NCBI GenBank assembly: GCA_964626965.1
Contig: CAZVHB010000003.1
Coordinates: 12,256 to 76,255 of the forward strand
Reading direction: 5' to 3'
Source: an uncultured Candidatus Saccharibacteria bacterium
Lineage (GTDB): Bacteria > Patescibacteriota > Minisyncoccia > Phycocordibacterales > UBA9973
Length of the DNA stretch: 64,000 nucleotides
The notes under the pieces were generated by a model that worked only from the letters and a program-made list of their open reading frames with translations, was not told the origin of the DNA and did not search any database. Each line of letters begins with the position of its first letter. Position 1 is the stretch's first letter. The position numbers were made by a program, and so were the translations under genes. Shown one piece after another: positions 23,106 to 63,975 of the stretch.

Positions 23106-23165
23106 AATAAAAAGAATTCCTAATTAAAAATTTCTAATTTCTAATTAAAACAAAGCAAAAATACA

Positions 23166-23199
23166 AAAAGCAATGCGACCATAGGTCGCATTGCTTTTT
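23166..23199. terminator. bidirectional terminator between convergent recA and pilB
   Basis: AAAAAGCAATGCGACC-ATA-GGTCGCATTGCTTTTT. Confidence 0.75.
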
Positions 23200-23244
23200 G
23201 TATTTTAATTAGAAATTAGTTATTAGAAATTCTTAATTCTATGT

Positions 23245-31128: not shown

Positions 31129-31196
31129 AGAAAAGTCCAGTACTAGTTTTTAGTGCGGAGTTTTTAGTTTATAGAGAAAACAGAGCACAAACATAC

Positions 31197-31240
31197 AACA
31201 GCAGGGCGACCAAAGGTCGCCCTGCTGTTGTGTTTTCTAT
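31197..31240. terminator. bidirectional terminator
   Basis: CAGCAGGGCGACC-AAA-GGTCGCCCTGCTG + TTGTGTTTT. Confidence 0.7.
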
Positions 31241-31890: not shown

Positions 31891-31928
31891 TTCTATAGTA
31901 TACAACAAAAAAATCTGTGCAACAATAC

Positions 31929-31959
31929 AAAAGAGCGCAACCTACGGTTGCGCTCTTTT
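31929..31959. terminator. bidirectional terminator downstream of rplL
   Basis: AAAGAGCGCAACC-TAC-GGTTGCGCTCTTTTG. Confidence 0.75.
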
Positions 31960-32091
31960 GTATTTACCTCTTGTTTTACCATTTGGCATTTAGAATCTAG
32001 GATTACTTGAGTTCAACCTTTCCTCCTGCACCCTGGAACGCTCCGGTAGAGCATTCCGAGTACTCCCGGAAAGTTTGAATGAAATAGTAAA

Positions 32092-32965: not shown

Positions 32966-33029
32966 ATGTTGATTAAGAATAAAAGACTTAATAAGTCATT
33001 TTATTTCTTAATTGTAAAATAAAAAAATC

Positions 33030-33140
33030 GACCTAATAAAAGCCGAAATTCTTATACACGTAGTGTCATTAGATATTTCTACCTCGGCTGGATTTACGGA
33101 AAGAATGTAGTCCTCTCCACCGGCTGTCTTCGGCTTATAC
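33030..33140 (-). promoter_or_regulatory. candidate ribosomal protein L10 leader (attenuator-type) upstream of rplJ, with sigma70-like promoter at 33145-33173
   Basis: Minus strand: TTGTAT-N17-TATATA promoter, then a ~95-nt stem-loop closed by AAGCCGAA/TTCGGCTT, followed by a U-rich tract before the rplJ AUG. Confidence 0.4.
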
Positions 33141-33370
33141 TCTATATATACCACACATTATTAAAAAATACAATTAATTAACGCGATCCAAGATCTCCCC
33201 AATCACCGCAGGAAGTTCTATCGTCTTTCCCCCTTTTATTTTACAATTCATCTCAGATAGATCACATCCATACCCTATATACAAGCTCACGAGTCCCAAG
33301 AACCCAAGACAGCAAAGCGCAAACAATGTACGTACTAAATGTGTCGTCATATACCTCTAGTATATCACAC

Positions 33371-41366: not shown

Positions 41367-41524
41367 TCTATTGTTAAATCGACACCATTTTTTAGAACCA
41401 GAAAGTGTACAATTTTTGATAAATTTTTTTGCGTAAGATTGAGCTAAATTCATATACCTTTATAATACGTGGAATAGGGTTGTATTGCAAACGACCAGCA
41501 CGGTCTTTTGCACCTTCTATAGAG

Positions 41525-41557
41525 AAAAGCAGGGCGCCCATAGGGCGCCCTGCTTTT
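41525..41557. terminator. bidirectional terminator downstream of nrdB
   Basis: AAAAGCAGGGCGCC-CATA-GGGCGCCCTGCTTTT. Confidence 0.75.
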
Positions 41558-41643
41558 CTATGCCTCTTGTTTTATCATTTAGCATTTATAACCCCGAAGC
41601 TCTGTTCGGGATCCCGACTTTACGTCGGGATTTAGCATTATTA

Positions 41644-45263: not shown

Positions 45264-45569
45264 GACCTGTAACTCATCATTAACCTTCTTGTAAAAAAAT
45301 ACATGCGAATCGGTCATCAAAAAACCAAACAAAGAATTCCTCACTTGGTTTGTATGCACTTTTCACACCCTCCTAAAAACTTTAGTACTCTTATTCTAAT
45401 CCTTTGCAAAAAAAATGTAAACAAAAAGTATAGTCAAATCACCCGAGAAAGAATATAAAAATGCAAGTCAATACACACTACTAAATAAGGTATACAGTGT
45501 AAGATTTTTTCGGTCTGTCCACAGGTGTTTTTTAAGACAAAAAGTATTAAGATTAGACGCAAAACATAC

Positions 45570-45604
45570 AAAGAGAGGGCACGCTCCGCGTGCCCTCTCT
45601 TTGT
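45570..45604. terminator. bidirectional terminator
   Basis: AAAGAGAGGGCACGC-TCC-GCGTGCCCTCTCTTTGT. Confidence 0.75.
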
Positions 45605-45645
45605 ATTAAAAATATCTTCGTTATCAATTACAAAAATCTACTTCT

Positions 45646-46651: not shown

Positions 46652-47269
46652 GTGTTCAAAATATATACTATGCACCATAAATTTAAACAGAAAGAAATCA
46701 AGGAAATTAGTTCTTTAATTCATGACATCGAAGAAAACTCTGAGGTCAAAAATAAGTTGTTGGATATAATTAGCCGAGCATTCTCACAGAGAAGTTTGGA
46801 ACTTATCCAGCCGGAACAATTTTTAGAAGCACTCCTTGATATTGATGTTATCACACATCAAAACCCAACTCTAGAGGAGTTACGAAAAAAATTCCTATTA
46901 AGTGTTTTTAAGGACACATACTCCGGAGTAATTCAATTTCAAACATTCGAAGAAATTACAAACAAGATTGAGGGTATCAGAGACAAAGCTTGTATAAAAG
47001 CATGGAGGGTTACTTTAGAAAATTTCAACATGCTAGAAAAAAGCACTTTACGAATGCACAACATAGCGGTGAACATCATTGACCCACAAAAAAAGATTTC
47101 AAACCTATCAGATGCACTGCAAAAATGCAATATAGGTGGGCAAAGTTCACTTATAATCCTTAGAGATTTAGCAAAACTTCTATTGGGACATTCTGTAGGG
47201 AAAACAGAAAGGGATGTTGAAAGAGATGGTCGGAACAAAATAAAGCAAAAACAAAAAGTATTTGCCTAA
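46652..47269 (+). CDS. hypothetical protein
   Basis: 205-aa protein-like ORF, no recognisable domain. Confidence 0.4.
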   Translation: MFKIYTMHHKFKQKEIKEISSLIHDIEENSEVKNKLLDIISRAFSQRSLELIQPEQFLEALLDIDVITHQNPTLEELRKKFLLSVFKDTYSGVIQFQTFEEITNKIEGIRDKACIKAWRVTLENFNMLEKSTLRMHNIAVNIIDPQKKISNLSDALQKCNIGGQSSLIILRDLAKLLLGHSVGKTERDVERDGRNKIKQKQKVFA

Positions 47270-47361
47270 AAATCAAACAGACGCAAAGGGCTATCGAAAG
47301 ATGGCTTTTTTTATTACCATCTCCACAATTATAAAAACCTCTTACGAGGTTTTTATAATTG

Positions 47362-47750
47362 TGGAGATGGCGGGTTTCGAGCCCGCGTCTAGAAAAGCTC
47401 GCACTATAGGTCTACGTGTGTAGAGTATTTTTTGATTTAACTGTCTATATTCTAAAATAATCAAAATACATAGAGAGCGAGACGAGATTATTTTAAGTAG
47501 TCAGACTCATCACCTCTGACTACCGAGTGAAAGTGTATAAGACCCAATCTCTTCCCTTTCAACCTAAAAGAGGTGAGTCAACGCTCGGCTTATATACTAA
47601 GCAAGAGCGAAAGCAAAGTTCATCTCACTTGCGTAAGGTGACTCTACTGAACCATTTGCGTTTGCATTTGGGTTTTGCATACAGATTACGAGTACATGCT
47701 TCTCGACACGCGTATAGTGTTTGCCAATCTGGCGAAACAAATACATCCCC
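47362..47750 (-). ncRNA. ssrA: transfer-messenger RNA (tmRNA, ssrA), ~389 nt, with candidate tag reading frame at 47597-47632
   Basis: Minus-strand 3' end AGACGCGGGCUCGAAACCCGCCAUCUCCA aligns with the E. coli tmRNA 3' end GGACGCGGGUUCAACUCCCGCCAGCUCCA(CCA). The 5' end GGGGAUG pairs with CAUCUCC, giving a 7-bp acceptor stem with a G3-U wobble. Internal reading frame GCA AGU GAG AUG AAC UUU GCU UUC GCU CUU GCU UAG (A-S-E-M-N-F-A-F-A-L-A-stop) resembles ANDENYALAA tags. smpB lies 560 bp away. Confidence 0.65.
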
Positions 47751-47875
47751 ATATTTTGTTCTTAATGTGCTCCATACAAAAGACGTACATGTCAGTATAC
47801 CATTACACATCAAAAGTAAGAAATCAAAAATTTGCATTATTTTTTTATTTATTGTAAAATAAACAAAAAAATATT

Positions 47876-48262
47876 ATGCTACAGAGTAAATTAACTATTG
47901 AAGAAATTCTCAATCGTTCTTTCATTAACACTGAAAACAGTATTAGGTCATGGAGAAAAGAAACCGGGCGTTGGTTGTCGTATGGCTCTAAATCTGTAAA
48001 AACAAATTTAGACACACTGATGTCTATTTTTACTAACGATATCCAATGTTTTGCTGATTTAGATCCCAATGATGATGTCATCGCCAGAAAATTGGCGTTT
48101 AAAAAAACTGAGTCACTTTTTAATGCATGGCGGATCGATTTAGATAGCCAGGATTGGTGGTGCTCAACACTCCGTACTCGATTAGATCAAATCCAAATAT
48201 CTTTGTCTCAAGACAAAAATGCTTTCTCCAAACTCTCTCAAAAGGCAACGACAGTTACCTAA
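47876..48262 (+). CDS. hypothetical protein
   Basis: 128-aa protein-like ORF; overlaps an antisense ORF judged spurious. Confidence 0.35.
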   Translation: MLQSKLTIEEILNRSFINTENSIRSWRKETGRWLSYGSKSVKTNLDTLMSIFTNDIQCFADLDPNDDVIARKLAFKKTESLFNAWRIDLDSQDWWCSTLRTRLDQIQISLSQDKNAFSKLSQKATTVT

Positions 48263-48309
48263 TCTATTACAAAAATACTAACACTCTGAAAAGATGCTAG
48301 TATTTTTTT

Positions 48310-48753
48310 CTATCTCACCTTATAGTCTCTTGCAATACTTCTATCTGTATCTCGTTTCTTAAGCGTCTCTCGTTTGTCATGAGATTTTTTTCCACGACAG
48401 AGCGCTATTTTTACTTTGATCAGATTTTTCTCACCGTACACGACGAGCGGAATAATCGTATTCCCTTTTAGTTCCCCGTCTTTCTCAAGAATACCAATCT
48501 GTTTTTTATGCAACAGAAGTTTTCGTGTTGCGAGTGGGTCATACCCGAGTGGTGTGTTTCCGACTTGATACGGGTCAATCTTCATACCCACAATGTACAC
48601 CTCTCCTCCACGGATGAGACACCGTGAACCGACAATAGAAGCTCTCCCATTTTTGACAGATTTTACCTCAAAACCCAAAAGCTTGATCCCCGCTTCATAG
48701 GTATCAAGTATTTCATAGTCGAATCGTGCTTTACTGTTCTCTGCGTACGTCAT
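48310..48753 (-). CDS. smpB: SsrA-binding protein SmpB
   Basis: 'KARFDYEILDTYEAGIKLLGFEVKS...GGEVYIVGMKIDPY...ATRKLLLHKKQI'. Start chosen at MTYAENSK; the ORF-track start adds 24 aa. Confidence 0.85.
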   Translation of the reverse strand: MTYAENSKARFDYEILDTYEAGIKLLGFEVKSVKNGRASIVGSRCLIRGGEVYIVGMKIDPYQVGNTPLGYDPLATRKLLLHKKQIGILEKDGELKGNTIIPLVVYGEKNLIKVKIALCRGKKSHDKRETLKKRDTDRSIARDYKVR

Positions 48754-48790
48754 TATGTCTATTATACAGAAATTATTGTAAAATGGATGA

Positions 48791-50134
48791 ATGCAAGAAA
48801 ATACACCATCTATCAAATTTACCATCTCAGGACTCCGCGGAGTCTGGGGAGAAAATTTAAATGAAACAGTCGCTCGTGAATATATCAGTGCATTTGCAGT
48901 CTTTCTTCAAAAACACGGCGCGAAAAAAATCCTTATCGGTAACGACGCCCGAAAATCTGGTCCTATTATAAAAAGTATTGCGATTGAAATTCTCACGAAC
49001 GCTGGTTTTGATATTATCGACACAGGTCTCACTCCAACACCAACGGTACTCTTTCTCGTGCGGACACTCGGTCTCGATGGAGCGATCATGCTCACTGCAT
49101 CACACAACCCACCAGAATATAACGGAATCAAATTTATCACAAACAAAGCACTCTTCACGAGTGCACAAGAAGTTGCGGAGATACAAAGCTACCTCGGACA
49201 ACAATATAATTCAGGACAAACAGGAACAGTCTATGTCGATGACACACTCACACAAAAACACATCGATCATATTCTTAGTCACGTTGATGTCGAACTTATC
49301 AAAAGTAAAAAGTTCACTGTCGTTCTCGATGCTATCAATAGTGTCGGATCTTTTATGGGACCACGACTTCTCGAAGCACTCGGCTGTGCTGTCACAACAC
49401 TAAACGCTATTCCTGATGGAAATTTTGCTCACACACCCGAACCACTCGCAGAAAACCTGACAGGACTCGGTGAAAAAGTGCGCGAGACAAAAGCCGATAT
49501 CGGCTTTGCACTTGACCCAGATGGTGACCGTCTCGTTGTTTGTGATGAAACAGGAACCGTAGTCTTTGAAGAATACACCCTCTCACTTGCAATCAATGCA
49601 GTGCTGAAAAAAACTCCGGGTGATATCGTTACAAACCTCTCAACAACAAACACCAACAAAGACCTCGTCGAAAAAGTTGGTTTCAAAAACTACCGCACTA
49701 AAGTCGGCGAAGCGAATGTTGTAGAAGGGATCACAAAACACAACGCGGTTATCGGTGGTGAAGGTGGAGGTGGAGTTATTTATCCAAAAGTAAATCTCGC
49801 TCGTGATGGTTTTGTTGGCATAGCGCTCATCCTCGAATCACTCGCACTTGAAAACAAAAATGTTTCTCAGATTATTGATGGTTTTTCAAAATATATTTTC
49901 ATCAAAGAAAAAATGCCGTTTTCTGGTGACCTGAGTGTGGCAATACAAAAAGTAATCGCGCTCTTCCCTGAAGGTATTGCCGACATACAAGACGGACTTC
50001 GTATCGACTTTGCTGACAATTCATGGATTCAGCTTCGCGCATCAAACACCGAGCCAATCATTCGTATTTATGCAGAAGGAAAAAATAGAGAGAGTATTGT
50101 AGAGAAAGTAGAGCTTATGAAGAAAAATTTATAA
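48791..50134 (+). CDS. phosphohexomutase (phosphoglucosamine mutase GlmM / phosphomannomutase family)
   Basis: Active-site 'LTASHNPPEYNGIKF', Mg site 'DPDGDR', 'GGEGGGG' sugar loop. Confidence 0.8.
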   Translation: MQENTPSIKFTISGLRGVWGENLNETVAREYISAFAVFLQKHGAKKILIGNDARKSGPIIKSIAIEILTNAGFDIIDTGLTPTPTVLFLVRTLGLDGAIMLTASHNPPEYNGIKFITNKALFTSAQEVAEIQSYLGQQYNSGQTGTVYVDDTLTQKHIDHILSHVDVELIKSKKFTVVLDAINSVGSFMGPRLLEALGCAVTTLNAIPDGNFAHTPEPLAENLTGLGEKVRETKADIGFALDPDGDRLVVCDETGTVVFEEYTLSLAINAVLKKTPGDIVTNLSTTNTNKDLVEKVGFKNYRTKVGEANVVEGITKHNAVIGGEGGGGVIYPKVNLARDGFVGIALILESLALENKNVSQIIDGFSKYIFIKEKMPFSGDLSVAIQKVIALFPEGIADIQDGLRIDFADNSWIQLRASNTEPIIRIYAEGKNRESIVEKVELMKKNL

Positions 50135-52821: not shown

Positions 52822-54201
52822 TTAGAATTCTATATATGCTTTTTCATTCTCAAGCGGTGCAATCGCATCTACTCCGAGCGTATCACGTAAACGTTGTGTG
52901 AGGAAAAATGAAGACTTTGGTTCCCCCATCGCGACGAAAACTTTCTTGAGTGTTTTGGTTGCATCAGATACAAATTCAACAAGGTGATCAGAATCTTTGT
53001 GACCAGAGTATCCACTAATTTTTTCTACGCGTGCATGCACTGGAATCTTGTCACCAAAGAGATAAATGTACTCTGCTTTATCTTCTATTCTGCGTCCGAC
53101 TGTTCCCGCTGACTGGTACCCAATCAACAGAATTGTATTATTTGGATTTGGGAGGTAGTTGTGTTCATGATGCATGACGCGTCCACCATTACTCATACCA
53201 GAGCCTGCGATTACTACTTTTGGAAATGGACTTGTTAAAATATCTTTTGAATCTTCAGTATCGAGTGTAATCTGAAGCCCAGGGAAAGTAAAAATATCAT
53301 CCCCTCTTCGAATTTGTTCCTGTGCACTATTATTGAAATACTTAGTGTACTTTCTGTACACATCAGTTACATGAATACCAAGCGGTGAATCCAAAAAGAT
53401 ATGCATTTCTGGAATTTGTTTTTTTGAAACAAGCTGGTCTATTTCAAACAAGAGTTCTTGAGTTCGCTCAAGAGAAAATGTCGGGATAACAAGCGCTCCT
53501 TTTCGATTGTAATTTTCCATCAAAAACTTTTTGAGGTTTTCAGTTCGTGCATCTCGAGCTTCATGGTTGCGATCACCGTAGACACTTTCCATAAGCATAT
53601 AGTCGATATTAGTAATCTTTTCAGTATCACGAAGGAGTGGTGACGGTGAGTTACCGAGGTCCCCGGTGAAGAGCATTCTTTTTCCATCTCGAGAAAACTC
53701 AATCATTGCAGATCCGAGAATGTGCCCCGCATCACGAAGGACAACATAGACATCATCCTCAAGCTTAATACCTTGATGGTATTCGAATCCTTCCCATGAG
53801 GTAAATGCTTTTTTGAGATTATCGTGCGTATAGATAGTGTTGAGCGCAAACTCTTCATTATCCCCCAATATCATCATCGTATCAATGAGCATCGGCACAG
53901 CGAGATCTTTTGTTGCATCAGTTGAAATAATACGTCCCCGAAACCCATCGTTTATGAGCTTTGGGATACGTCCGATATGGTCAATATGTGAATGTGTGAT
54001 AAAGAGAATATCGATAGAAGCTGGGTCATAGATAAACGGAGCCCAGTTTTTTTCATCAGCGAGTTTGGTTGATTGTTCGAGTCCACAGTCAATTAAAAAT
54101 TTCCAGACTTTTCCATTTTTCCCAGGTACTTCAAATAAAAAATTTGCTCCGGTTACAGAGCCCGCTCCTGAACAAAATGTAATGGTCGATGTATTCTTCA
54201 T
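52822..54201 (-). CDS. MBL-fold beta-CASP ribonuclease (RNase J-like)
   Basis: 'ILFITHSHIDHIG' metallo-beta-lactamase motif plus beta-CASP region; 459 aa. Confidence 0.65.
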   Translation of the reverse strand: MKNTSTITFCSGAGSVTGANFLFEVPGKNGKVWKFLIDCGLEQSTKLADEKNWAPFIYDPASIDILFITHSHIDHIGRIPKLINDGFRGRIISTDATKDLAVPMLIDTMMILGDNEEFALNTIYTHDNLKKAFTSWEGFEYHQGIKLEDDVYVVLRDAGHILGSAMIEFSRDGKRMLFTGDLGNSPSPLLRDTEKITNIDYMLMESVYGDRNHEARDARTENLKKFLMENYNRKGALVIPTFSLERTQELLFEIDQLVSKKQIPEMHIFLDSPLGIHVTDVYRKYTKYFNNSAQEQIRRGDDIFTFPGLQITLDTEDSKDILTSPFPKVVIAGSGMSNGGRVMHHEHNYLPNPNNTILLIGYQSAGTVGRRIEDKAEYIYLFGDKIPVHARVEKISGYSGHKDSDHLVEFVSDATKTLKKVFVAMGEPKSSFFLTQRLRDTLGVDAIAPLENEKAYIEF

Positions 54202-54213
54202 GTATAGAGTATA

Positions 54214-54624
54214 CTACAGAATTTTCCTTTTTATCAAAAAAAGGATACTCACACATCCGCCAGCAAGATCAAAGCCGAAGTCACTGAATGTATCGAGGTA
54301 GTTTGGAACTCTAGTTGAAAAACTATGATCGATGAAGAATTCATAGAACTCCCAGCCGATACTCAGTACAAATACCCAAAATAAAATAATCAAAACCCAA
54401 TAATACTTTTTTGAGAAATCTGTTTGTTTGTAGAAAAAGAGGATACAATACACAACCAAAAAACCGAGAAATACTCCTCCGAGAAAATGCATTGGCATAT
54501 CAAAATACCAGTATCTCCAATAGAGAAACTGTGCTTGCGCGACAGAATGGAGTATAAAAATAAAAGCCACAAGTGCAAGGAGCATTCGTGAAAAGTGTTT
54601 TTGTGAGACGGCTTGTTTTTCCAT
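54214..54624 (-). CDS. small polytopic membrane protein (possibly VanZ-like)
   Basis: Four predicted TM helices; 136 aa. Confidence 0.4.
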   Translation of the reverse strand: MEKQAVSQKHFSRMLLALVAFIFILHSVAQAQFLYWRYWYFDMPMHFLGGVFLGFLVVYCILFFYKQTDFSKKYYWVLIILFWVFVLSIGWEFYEFFIDHSFSTRVPNYLDTFSDFGFDLAGGCVSILFLIKRKIL

Positions 54625-55034
54625 ACAATAAGTATATCATAACAACCTCATCCCCCGCCTTCTCCTAGCCAGGAGAAGGAGCTTACTACAGAGTATCTTG
54701 ATTCTTTCCTCCTCTCCTGACTAGGAGAGGAGTTAGAGGTGAGGTTGAAAATACTGAGACAAAACATTAAAAGAAACAAGGAGAAGTTCCTAAAGAAAAA
54801 ACGCACTTTCGTGCATTTACTCTTTAGGATTATCGATCCGATATTACTATAGTCCTTTGGTATAAAGGTGGGTACCGTGTGCAACATTCCAAGGAATAAT
54901 ACAAGTCAGGCCCCTAGTAATACGCGTTCTAAGTAATACTTCTCAATAATCCTACCTGGAGTATACGCTACGAGTGACGCTTGTTGCAAGGAAAAAAATG
55001 TTTTTTAATGAATTTTTTGAGACTAAAAATAAAC

Positions 55035-63844: not shown

Positions 63845-63888
63845 AGTCTATTGGATGTTTCGTTGTATTTGAGCATTTAGTTTCAAAG

Positions 63889-63975
63889 CGGAGGAGGGGG
63901 GATTCGAACTCCCGGACCCCGTAAAGGGTCTCTTGTTTTCAAGACAAGTGCCTTCAACCACTCAGCCACTCCTCC
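63889..63975 (-). tRNA. tRNA-Ser (anticodon UGA), type II with long variable arm
   Basis: Reverse complement GGAGGAG-UG-GCUGAGUGGUUGAAGGC-ACUUGU-CUUGAAA-ACAAG-AGACCCUUUACGGGGUCC-GGGAG-UUCGAAU-CCCCC-CUCCUCC-G. The acceptor is a perfect 7 bp, the T-loop is UUCGAAU, the anticodon loop is CU-UGA-AA; CCA is not encoded. Confidence 0.85.

What the first reader, a model, noticed from the sequence alone, without database searches (positions are those of the whole stretch)
47317..47750. Previously unannotated tmRNA gene (ssrA) on the minus strand, with an unusual 25-bp perfect hairpin that shares its 5' arm with the tmRNA acceptor 3' strand
The ORF track shows only spurious ORFs here. On the minus strand, 47750-47362 reads GGGGAUGUAUUUGUUUCGCC... 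...CUAGACGCGGGCUCGAAACCCGCCAUCUCCA. The last 29 nt align almost base for base with the E. coli tmRNA T-arm/acceptor (GACGCGGGUUCAACUCCCGCCAGCUCCA). The 5' GGGGAUG pairs perfectly with CAUCUCC and includes the G3-U wobble required for alanylation. An internal frame encodes A-S-E-M-N-F-A-F-A-L-A-stop, which is ANDENYALAA-like. smpB is 560 bp away. Immediately 3' of the gene, CCATCTCCACAATTATAAAAACCTC-GTAA-GAGGTTTTTATAATTGTGGAGATGG forms a perfect 25-bp hairpin that begins inside the acceptor 3' strand. This is likely a terminator or processing structure that must be removed or opened before aminoacylation. CCA is not encoded.
Basis: partly seen in the sequence, partly recalled or inferred. Interest (0 to 1): 0.7.

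Follow-up and report, generated by a model that had tools for sequence, protein, structure and literature searches.

The report
tmRNA gene with acceptor-overlapping terminator palindrome
This is a genuine ribosome-rescue RNA (tmRNA) gene of a Patescibacteria (CPR) bacterium; its terminator hairpin extends 10 bp into the RNA's own 3' end, and relatives show that extension is a leftover of an apparently undescribed small RNA element found after tRNA-like and ribosomal-protein genes.

Summary
Window 47362-47750 (-) is a full-length one-piece tmRNA (Rfam RF00023, 111 bits, E 1e-42). It has a 7-bp acceptor stem with G3·U and a conserved tag, ANANGSVESPYASEMNFAFALA. smpB lies 559 nt upstream and CCA is not encoded. 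ARAGORN misses the gene, as it misses half of this clade's tmRNAs.

The 25-bp perfect palindrome (47317-47370) is real. Its inner 15 bp look like this genome's usual A/U-flanked terminator palindromes. The unusual part is the outer 10 bp, which complement the acceptor 3' strand.

That extension is not chance. An exact complement of >=9 nt occurs downstream of 7/70 related tmRNA genes against 0/209 control windows. Four lineages carry perfect 23-27-bp hairpins whose inner sequences differ.

Folding predicts a normal acceptor stem if transcription stops at the internal U-tract. Only read-through RNA has its acceptor strand locked (-40 kcal/mol helix).

In relatives the extension is the first module of a larger element: host 3' end, hairpin, inverted copy, a covarying two-hairpin RNA core, direct copy. 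This element follows tRNA, tmRNA and rpsI genes, is tailored to each host, and matches no Rfam family. The window keeps only the inverted copy. The tmRNA is ordinary, the role of the extension is unresolved, and the element family is the interesting lead.

The parts
47362..47750 (-). tmRNA (ssrA) gene, mature 5' end to discriminator A; 389 nt; CCA not encoded
   Evidence: Rfam RF00023 111.4 bits, model 1-374, E 1.1e-42; sequence; 84-92% identical to tmRNAs next to smpB in close relatives
47744..47750 (-). acceptor 5' strand GGGGAUG (G3 forms the G·U pair)
   Evidence: 7/7 pairing with 47363-47369; forms in the MFE of the mature RNA
47597..47665 (-). tag reading frame: resume codon GCA, ANANGSVESPYASEMNFAFALA, stop TAG
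   Evidence: Rfam alignment of the resume region; the same frame gives ANANGSVKSPYASKNFAFALA in L002, L084, L085 and L087 and close variants in L001, L082, L083 and L089; similar tags called by ARAGORN in 41 relatives
47370..47386 (-). T-arm GCGGG-CUCGAAA-CCCGC (T-loop starts with C instead of U)
47363..47369 (-). acceptor 3' strand CAUCUCC; discriminator A at 47362
47317..47370 (.). perfect palindrome, 25-bp arms and 4-nt loop; predicted RNA hairpin of -40.0 kcal/mol
   Evidence: the repeat finder I1; RNAfold; longest perfect hairpin in the window
47327..47360 (.). inner 15-bp part AAUUAUAAAAACCUC/GUAA/GAGGUUUUUAUAAUU: probable bidirectional intrinsic terminator (weak 4-bp G+C core, U-tract within the 3' arm)
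   Evidence: same A-tract / G+C core / T-tract design as about 10 other perfect palindromes at gene ends in the window; -16.4 kcal/mol; not flagged by the simple terminator scan
47317..47326 (-). a' = GUGGAGAUGG, inverted copy of the last T-stem C + acceptor 3' strand + discriminator + C; the unusual outer extension
   Evidence: homologous a' in L002, L006, L029, L057, L065, L077 and L082; 7/70 against 0/209 controls
47794..47802 (-). candidate extended -10 promoter TGGTATACT; predicted start near 47787; about 37-nt leader
   Evidence: read from the sequence; leader shared with L001, L082 and L083; inference, not flagged by the promoter scan
48310..48753 (-). smpB (147 aa), partner protein of tmRNA
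   Evidence: Pfam PF01668, E 2.8e-48; all homologs are 146-148 aa
47290..47312 (+). separate terminator of the convergent ORF 46652-47269: GCTATC-GAAA-GATGGC followed by T7
   Evidence: read from the sequence; conserved next to the tmRNA segment in L001

Best explanation
The locus is a standard one-piece tmRNA gene of a Patescibacteria (Paceibacteria/Nomurabacteria-like) bacterium. It appears to be transcribed from its own extended -10 promoter and works with the SmpB encoded 559 nt upstream. CCA is added after transcription. The palindrome has two parts. The inner 15 bp (A-tract, short G+C core, U-tract) is the usual bidirectional intrinsic terminator of this genome. A polymerase stopping at the internal U-tract releases a precursor with a trailer of about 30 nt that lacks the outer arm. 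In that RNA the acceptor stem forms, and the trailer is trimmed before CCA addition (inferred). The outer 10 bp (a') is an inverted copy of the tmRNA's 3' end. It enters RNA only on read-through, where it is predicted to pull the acceptor 3' strand into a -40 kcal/mol helix. It would therefore act only on read-through transcripts, for example by inactivating them or marking them for double-strand-specific cleavage (inferred, not shown). In evolutionary terms, a' is the retained first module of a lineage-wide, host-tailored element: host 3' end X, hairpin, reverse complement of X, two-hairpin RNA core, imperfect copy of X. The window has lost the rest of that element.
For: tmRNA identity. Terminator design shared with other gene-end palindromes. 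Folding: the acceptor stem forms in mature and U-tract-terminated RNA; in read-through RNA the 25-bp helix wins, and enforcing the acceptor stem costs 12.7 kcal/mol. Conservation of a': perfect hairpins of 25 bp (L002, L085-L088), 23 bp (L082) and 27 bp (L006) with different inner sequences, each difference mirrored in the other arm. Enrichment: 7/70 against 0/209 for the acceptor complement, and 10/70 against 0/209 for a T-arm complement of >=10 nt. In L082 the neighbouring hairpin has decayed and the core is gone, yet a' is 9/9 and t' is 11/12. Larger element: architecture; core structure with 21/29 covarying pairs and abundant G·U pairs; 43/83 instances directly follow an ARAGORN-called tRNA or tmRNA of 16 kinds, and others follow rpsI. 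Ends match the element's own host far better than shuffled hosts: 16/43 against 1.5% for inverted matches, 22/43 against 0.8% for direct matches. 'Short-form' copies, for example after tRNA-Ala in L130 and L144 and tRNA-Ile in L015, have the same kind of hairpin as the window.
Against: There are no transcript data, so the termination point and any processing are inferred. The G+C core of the inner stem has only 4 bp, weaker than the other terminators in the window, so read-through could be the rule rather than the exception. The simple terminator scan did not flag the site. a' is dispensable: close relatives L084 and L089 have plain terminators starting after the discriminator, and L001 has none of it. 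The window has no copy of the core, so descent of a' from the element rests on positional homology with L082 and L002. Perfect palindromes could also be kept perfect by a DNA-level process rather than by selection on RNA.
Confidence: 0.6

Rival explanations
1. Obligatory processing hairpin. The hairpin is not an efficient terminator, so essentially every primary transcript contains both arms. The 25-bp duplex is then the entry site for a double-strand-specific nuclease (RNase III type), followed by trimming, refolding of the acceptor stem and CCA addition.
For: The G+C core is weak (4 bp) compared with the other terminators. In complete elements the core RNA lies downstream of such hairpins and shows RNA-level covariation, so those hairpins must often be read through. 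A 25-bp perfect duplex is long enough for RNase III (general knowledge). The helix is 12.7 kcal/mol better than the acceptor-stem fold.
Against: No other terminator lies downstream on this strand before the convergent ORF, so habitual read-through would produce antisense RNA. Cleavage inside the duplex would cut mature sequence. The distance from discriminator to loop varies (15-18 bp) among lineages, so there is no measured cut site. Close relatives do without a'.
Confidence: 0.2
2. Neutral relic or mutational by-product. The outer arm is a not-yet-decayed remnant of a lost element, or an outward extension of the palindrome created and kept perfect by intrastrand template switching at the hairpin during replication. 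It has no function in RNA.
For: The element's core is absent from the window. a' is lost in L001, L084 and L089 without apparent harm. All terminators in this genome are perfect palindromes up to 23 bp, which fits a homogenising process. The locus is a rearrangement hotspot.
Against: a' and t' stay perfect or nearly so while the adjacent hairpin and the direct copy decay (L082, L057, L065, L002). t' stays 12/12 complementary across an intervening hairpin that interrupts the palindrome, in 7 lineages with different T-stems, which simple palindrome extension does not explain. No other terminator in the window extends into non-A/T flanking sequence.
Confidence: 0.25
3. DNA-level recombination site. 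The inverted copy of the tmRNA 3' end next to the gene forms a folded single-strand or cruciform site, like the folded attachment site of CTX phage or integron attC sites. Such a site would be used for insertion of the small element and would be responsible for the local rearrangements.
For: The topology (hybrid site, loop, inverted copy, cargo, second hybrid site) matches integration of a folded single strand. Direct repeats of up to 25 nt of the host 3' end flank the insert, and tandem arrays occur (L110, L156). In L077 the native trailer seen in L038 and L063 follows the second copy. The tmRNA segment was inverted at least twice independently.
Against: The core has many G·U pairs that would be A·C mismatches on the other strand, which indicates an RNA on the host strand. 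No recombinase or any other protein family recurs nearby. The ends are tailored to more than 16 different hosts, which a carried attachment site cannot explain. The occupied-versus-empty comparison L085 against L084/L089 shows replacement rather than a clean insertion. The inversion endpoints do not coincide with the two arms.
Confidence: 0.12

Closest known systems
Standard one-piece tmRNA (ssrA, Rfam RF00023) with SmpB
   Same: Full-length match to the model; acceptor stem with G3·U; T-arm; internal tag frame ending in hydrophobic ...FALA plus a stop; smpB adjacent on the same strand.
   Different: CCA is not encoded (common in this clade); the T-loop starts with C; the tag is long (22 residues); ARAGORN does not detect the gene; the 3' flank carries an inverted copy of the RNA's own 3' end.
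tRNA genes followed directly by Rho-independent terminators in E. coli (leuX, proK and others; PMC2811032, PMC5291269)
   Same: A stable RNA gene ends within a few nucleotides of a terminator hairpin that must be removed by RNase E, PNPase or RNase P plus exonucleases.
   Different: In those cases the stem starts downstream of CCA and does not pair with mature sequence. Here the palindrome extends 10 bp into the acceptor strand and the last T-stem base.
Circularly permuted (two-piece) tmRNA genes (Rfam RF04321)
   Same: The local order is acceptor 3' strand, short intervening loop, then a 5'-acceptor-like strand. Related loci give weak hits to that model (L032, L077; E 0.4-0.6).
   Different: The gene here is complete and collinear. 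The downstream strand is a perfect Watson-Crick complement (A3-U, not G3·U) and is not followed by a coding piece. The scores are far below the gathering threshold.
Folded single-strand attachment sites (CTX phage attP, integron attC) and retroviral primer-binding sites
   Same: There is an inverted copy of a target sequence beside one junction. A stretch complementary to the 3'-terminal ~20 nt of a tRNA-like RNA appears in the same order as a primer-binding site.
   Different: No recombinase or reverse transcriptase is associated. The core behaves as an RNA on the host strand. A hairpin interrupts the complement. This is resemblance only; membership was not tested.

Membership tests
tmRNA (RF00023) | Covariance-model score above Rfam's gathering threshold over the full model | tested here: met
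   111.4 bits against 47, model 1-374/374, E 1.1e-42
tmRNA (RF00023) | tRNA-like domain: 7-bp acceptor stem with G3·U70, T-arm, discriminator A | tested here: met
   GGGGAUG/CAUCUCC pairs 7/7 with G3·U; GCGGG-CUCGAAA-CCCGC; A at 47362
tmRNA (RF00023) | Internal tag frame starting at a resume codon and ending in a hydrophobic Ala-rich tail plus a stop, conserved among relatives | tested here: met
   ANANGSVESPYASEMNFAFALA*; the same frame is conserved in 8 close relatives and similar tags occur in 41 others
tmRNA (RF00023) | Pseudoknots PK1-PK4 around the tag frame | tested here: inconclusive
   The region aligns to the model with lowered posterior probabilities. Individual pseudoknots were not examined.
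tmRNA (RF00023) | Partner SmpB encoded in the genome | tested here: met
   Pfam PF01668, E 2.8e-48, 559 nt upstream on the same strand
tmRNA (RF00023) | 3' CCA present, alanylation, and tagging activity | not testable with these tools
   CCA is not encoded (ACAA) and must be added enzymatically. There are no expression or proteomic data.
tmRNA detected by ARAGORN | Recognised by ARAGORN's tmRNA heuristics | tested here: not met
   0 genes. Still 0 after repairing the T-loop and CCA in silico.
Intrinsic (Rho-independent) terminator | G+C-rich stem-loop followed directly by a U-tract | tested here: inconclusive
   The inner stem has only 4 G-C pairs, and the U-tract UUUUUAUAAUU is itself paired within the palindrome. 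The consensus scan did not flag it. The design does match the other gene-end palindromes in the window.
Host-tailored 3'-flank element of Patescibacteria (unnamed; defined here) | Inverted copy of the host gene's 3' end just beyond a hairpin | tested here: met
   a' at 47317-47326, 10/10 complementary; the same position as in L002, L082 and L006
Host-tailored 3'-flank element of Patescibacteria (unnamed; defined here) | Conserved two-hairpin RNA core (model R1) followed by a direct copy of the host 3' end | tested here: not met
   There is no real match in the window (best 18 bits at 54605-54686, lacking the conserved motifs) and no direct copy downstream. The window is therefore not filed as a member; it holds only a fragment.
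Group I intron in the tmRNA T-loop | Interrupted T-loop with an intron; splice sites U| ... G| | tested here: not met
   The gene is uninterrupted. In relatives the 18-25-nt direct repeats are incompatible with group I splice-site rules, and no intron model matches.

The most novel reading that the evidence does not exclude
The outer arm of the hairpin is the surviving 'guide-like' module of a previously undescribed class of small structured RNA elements in Patescibacteria. These elements settle at the 3' ends of highly expressed genes (tRNAs of at least 15 specificities, tmRNA, rpsI). Each copy carries an inverted and a direct copy of its own host's last 8-25 nt around a conserved two-hairpin core. 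This implies that a templated mechanism (RNA- or single-strand-mediated) rewrites the element's ends for each host. It also implies an antisense clamp on the host RNA's 3' end that is still under selection in the window.
Probability: 0.35. Interest if true: 0.8.

Novelty: new variant of a known kind. Interest (0 to 1): 0.5.

Why it matters
The tmRNA gene itself only fills an annotation gap. It also flags that ARAGORN-based pipelines miss about half of the tmRNAs in this CPR clade. The overlap between terminator and acceptor strand matters more, because it led to a family of host-tailored elements that no Rfam model covers and that I could not find in the literature. If these elements are mobile, they need a mechanism that copies each target's 3' end in both orientations. 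If they are functional RNAs, they are a new kind of 3'-end module for tRNA, tmRNA and ribosomal-protein transcripts in organisms with minimal RNA-processing machinery. Either answer can be tested with existing metatranscriptomes and complete CPR genomes.

Tried and rejected
1. ARAGORN on the window and on in-silico repaired versions (T-loop, CCA) gave no call. The cause was not found.

2. Group I intron in the T-loop, as known for Bacillota tmRNAs (PMC13011429). Rejected: the gene is intact, the repeat phase is incompatible with splice sites, and no intron model hits.

3. Permuted tmRNA. Only weak sub-threshold hits in relatives.

4. Classical genomic island with an integrase at the tmRNA 3' end. 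There is no integrase near the window locus, and no recurrent protein family next to 53 element loci.

5. Any known RNA family for the downstream element. A permissive Rfam scan of 10 loci found nothing.

6. Clean occupied-versus-empty site comparison (L085 against L084/L089). The trailers are replaced rather than inserted into, so mobility is not demonstrated that way.

7. Homology between the window's 520-bp insert and L001's 513-bp insert. None.

8. Aligning whole hairpins for pair counting. MAFFT could not keep the arms in register, so per-lineage perfection was used instead.

9. A core copy in the window. Only a spurious 18-bit hit.

10. About 17 of 83 metagenome pattern hits were chance matches in G+C-rich coding DNA and were excluded.

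11. Literature searches for a prior description found nothing relevant.

Full report
**1.

Rfam's tmRNA model RF00023 matches 47750-47359 over its whole length with 111.4 bits (gathering score 47) and E 1.1e-42.
- The 5' GGGGAUG pairs 7/7 with CAUCUCC (47369-47363), including G3·U.
- The T-arm is GCGGG-CUCGAAA-CCCGC (47386-47370). The discriminator is A at 47362, followed by CAA, so CCA is not encoded.
- The repeat finder reports arms 47317-47341 and 47346-47370: 25 nt, 100% complementary, 4-nt loop.
- smpB (Pfam PF01668, E 2.8e-48) ends 559 nt upstream. All homologs are 146-148 aa, so the real gene is 48310-48753, not the 171-codon ORF.

Two corrections are needed. First, ARAGORN finds no tmRNA here. 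It also misses 39 of 80 related tmRNAs that Rfam finds, and it still fails after the T-loop and CCA are repaired in silico. This is a limit of the tool, not evidence against the gene. From the resume codon GCA (47665-47663) the frame encodes ANANGSVESPYASEMNFAFALA and stops at 47599-47597. The same frame gives ANANGSVKSPYASKNFAFALA or close variants in eight close relatives.

**2. Organism and context**

SmpB relatives place the window in Patescibacteria, among Paceibacteria/Nomurabacteria-like MAGs. The best match is 97% identical (L001), and the window's own genome is not in the protein collection. The neighbourhood is housekeeping: phosphoglucomutase, ribonucleotide reductase, TruB, NDK and an RNase J-like beta-CASP protein. 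No integrase is present.

The tmRNA follows smpB on the same strand in 76 of the 78 genome loci where one was found; in L015 it lies ~900 nt further downstream. Only about one in five of these genes encodes CCA. So the missing CCA is normal for the clade.

**3. What is and is not unusual about the hairpin**

The 64-kb window holds about ten distinct perfect hairpins of 12-23 bp at gene ends. All have an A-rich outer 5' arm, a G+C core and a T-rich outer 3' arm, which is the design of bidirectional intrinsic terminators. The inner 15 bp of the tmRNA hairpin (AAUUAUAAAAACCUC/GUAA/..) fit that pattern, though the G+C core is weak at 4 bp.

The outer 10 bp are unique. CCAUCUCCAC/GUGGAGAUGG is the last T-stem base, the acceptor 3' strand, the discriminator and one further C, paired with an inverted copy that I call a' (47317-47326).

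The convergent ORF 46652-47269 has its own terminator at 47290-47312 (+). The palindrome is therefore not needed for that gene.

**4. Predicted consequences for the RNA**
- The full hairpin is -40.0 kcal/mol; the inner part alone is -16.4.
- In the mature RNA, and in RNA ending at the internal U-tract, nucleotides 1-6 pair with the acceptor 3' strand as expected.
- In RNA that reads through to 47317 the minimum-energy fold contains the 25-bp helix and the acceptor stem is lost. Enforcing the acceptor stem costs 12.7 kcal/mol.

So a' matters at the RNA level only for read-through transcripts. How frequent these are is unknown.

**5. The extension is conserved and is more than chance**

Among 70 related tmRNA loci with enough flank:
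- an exact complement of >=9 nt to the acceptor strand lies within 150 nt downstream in 7 loci, against 0 of 209 control windows;
- a complement of >=10 nt to the T-loop/T-stem 3' half (t') lies there in 10 loci, against 0 of 209.

Independent lineages carry perfect hairpins with different inner sequences: the window 25 bp; L002 and L085-L088 25 bp; L082 23 bp; L006 27 bp. L003 and L005 have near-perfect versions. Every difference in one arm is mirrored in the other.

t' is 12/12 complementary to each genome's own T-arm in seven lineages whose T-stems differ.

The feature is dispensable, however. L084 and L089 have plain terminators that start after the discriminator, and L001 has an ordinary G+C-rich terminator.

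**6. a' is the first module of a larger element**

In many relatives the tmRNA 3' end (t, a) is followed by:
- a terminator-like hairpin;
- a';
- a conserved hairpin (AGCAAGCAAACUGCUUUGCUUGC, with a covarying stem);
- t';
- a structured region;
- often a direct, usually decayed, copy of t-a.

The same core follows tRNA-Ile in L015, bounded by an inverted and a direct copy of that tRNA's own 3' end.

Of 83 instances read:
- about 17 are chance hits in G+C-rich coding DNA;
- 43 directly follow an ARAGORN-called gene on the same strand, at a median of 90 nt from gene end to core: tRNAs of 15 specificities, or tmRNA;
- several others follow rpsI, with the end of the coding sequence and its perfect inverted copy flanking the hairpin.

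The ends match the element's own host far better than shuffled hosts. Exact inverted matches of >=10 nt occur in 16/43 against 1.5%. Direct matches of >=10 nt occur in 22/43 against 0.8%. Tandem arrays occur (L156 and others).

The core folds into two adjacent hairpins. Of 29 pairs, 21 show compensatory double changes, and G·U pairs are frequent (one pair is G·U in all 39 sequences). These would be mismatches on the other strand, so the core is a structured RNA on the host's strand.

Other negative results:
- A permissive Rfam scan finds no family for it.
- No protein family recurs next to it; the neighbours are housekeeping genes.
- Five literature searches found no description.

'Short-form' copies, for example after tRNA-Ala in L130 and L144, consist of a long A/U-rich hairpin whose base is the host's last 5-8 nt paired with their inverted copy. 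That is exactly the kind of hairpin seen in the window.

**7. The state of the window**

A covariance model of the core (R1) recovers the elements after tmRNA in seven SmpB loci and after tRNA-Ile in L015. It finds nothing real in the window.

L082 shares the window's 520-bp insert between smpB and the tmRNA. It shows an intermediate state: a' 9/9, the neighbouring hairpin about 30% decayed, t' 11/12, and no core. The window has gone one step further and keeps only a', still 10/10.

a' and t' stay intact while neighbouring parts and the direct copy decay. This argues that pairing with the tmRNA 3' end is maintained in its own right, either by selection or by a process that keeps palindromes perfect.

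**8. Best explanation and rivals**

Shown:
- a genuine tmRNA gene;
- a palindrome whose inner part matches this genome's terminators;
- an outer extension that is conserved, enriched, and homologous to a module of a host-tailored RNA element.

Inferred:
- termination at the internal U-tract, followed by trimming of the trailer and CCA addition;
- an effect of a' only on read-through RNA;
- loss of the rest of the element from the window.

Rivals:
- an obligatory processing duplex present on every transcript (0.2);
- a neutral relic or a product of template switching (0.25);
- a DNA-level folded recombination site (0.12).

Each rival has specific evidence for and against it, listed in the corresponding fields. 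Transcript 3'-end mapping would separate the first two readings.

**9. Comparison with what is known**

As a tmRNA this is a new member of a well-known family. Terminators that abut tRNA genes and are removed by RNase E, PNPase or RNase P are known in E. coli (PMC2811032, PMC5291269), but those stems begin downstream of CCA. T-loop group I introns in tmRNA genes are known, mostly in Bacillota (PMC13011429), and do not apply here.

The order 'acceptor 3' strand, loop, 5'-acceptor-like strand' recalls permuted tmRNA genes, but only weakly. The element's layout recalls folded single-strand attachment sites and primer-binding sites. Those are resemblances, not tested memberships.

**10. Verdict**

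The tmRNA call is right and ordinary. The hairpin is real, non-random and conserved, and its function is unresolved. Its main value is as the thread that led to an apparently undescribed family of host-tailored RNA elements.

Interest for the finding as given is 0.5. Novelty is a new variant of a known kind.

Noticed in passing
L003 4142-4228, L005 4012-4098, L006 3990-4076, L013 2124-2212, L015 704-793 (-), L007, L009, L077; metagenome loci L090-L169: A family of ~100-250-nt non-coding elements lies at the 3' ends of tRNA (15 specificities), tmRNA and rpsI genes in Patescibacteria. The layout is host 3' end X, hairpin, reverse complement of X, covarying two-hairpin RNA core (terminal loop GAGCGACGGCGA, tandem G·A internal loop), then a copy of X. 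It matches no Rfam family, no associated protein gene was found, and tandem arrays occur.
   Followed up: partly
L002 2334-2620, L057, L065, L032, L085; also L096, L101 and L160 upstream of type-1 cores: A second, different core type sits in the same position (..CUUUUC-hairpin-GAAAAGG-UGUAC-UGAUCC-UGUAA-GGAUCGA..). It can stand in tandem with itself or with the type-1 core.
   Followed up: no
L001 3510-3938 and L083 3029-3458 (equivalent to window 47359-47792): The tmRNA segment, from about the predicted transcription start to the mature 3' end, is inverted relative to smpB in two relatives that are not sister lineages (SmpB identity L001-window 97%, L001-L083 84%). This implies at least two independent inversions of the same ~430 bp. 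The contigs come from different assemblers and have unique flanks.
   Followed up: partly
window 47788-48309: A ~520-bp insert between smpB and the tmRNA promoter is shared only with L081 and L082 (74-79% identity) and is absent from all other relatives, where the tmRNA starts ~55-70 nt after smpB. It holds a 128-codon ORF on the opposite strand (47876-48262) with no Pfam match.
   Followed up: partly
window-wide, e.g. 23158-23206, 45566-45606, 31924-31964, 41523-41559, 31195-31231: Terminators in this genome are strikingly long perfect palindromes (15-23 bp) with A-rich/T-rich outer arms, often containing AATACAAAA. Not one has a mismatch.
   Followed up: partly
L089 2944-3201; L041 ~200 nt downstream of its tmRNA element: Small GIY-YIG nuclease-family ORFs sit immediately beside the tmRNA gene in two relatives: between smpB and the tmRNA in L089, and after the 3' element in L041.
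   Followed up: no
L082 1-1096: A reverse transcriptase (RVT_1) with a bAvd-like neighbour, the signature of a diversity-generating retroelement, lies next to the phosphoglucomutase-smpB-tmRNA locus in a close relative. There is none in the corresponding part of the window.
   Followed up: no
L086, L087, L088 (contig ends at ~3535): Three independent Logan contigs end at the same place inside the type-2 core downstream of the tmRNA. This is probably an assembly break caused by the tandemly repeated element.
   Followed up: no
window 48754-48825: The mechanical smpB ORF has 24 extra N-terminal codons. All 120 listed homologs are 137-160 aa, nearly all 146-149, so the start is at 48753.
   Followed up: yes
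L022 and L030, downstream of tRNA-Ile: A second tRNA 3' half (variable loop, T-arm, acceptor) lies 45-90 nt after the called tRNA-Ile. This could be a split or intron-containing tRNA gene, or a tandem partial copy.
   Followed up: no
window 33012-33151 (-), 63888-63975 (-), 52822-54201 (-): An L10 leader (Rfam, 50 bits), a tRNA-Ser(TGA) with no acceptor-overlapping hairpin, and an RNase J-like beta-CASP/RMMBL protein that is a candidate for trailer removal.
   Followed up: no
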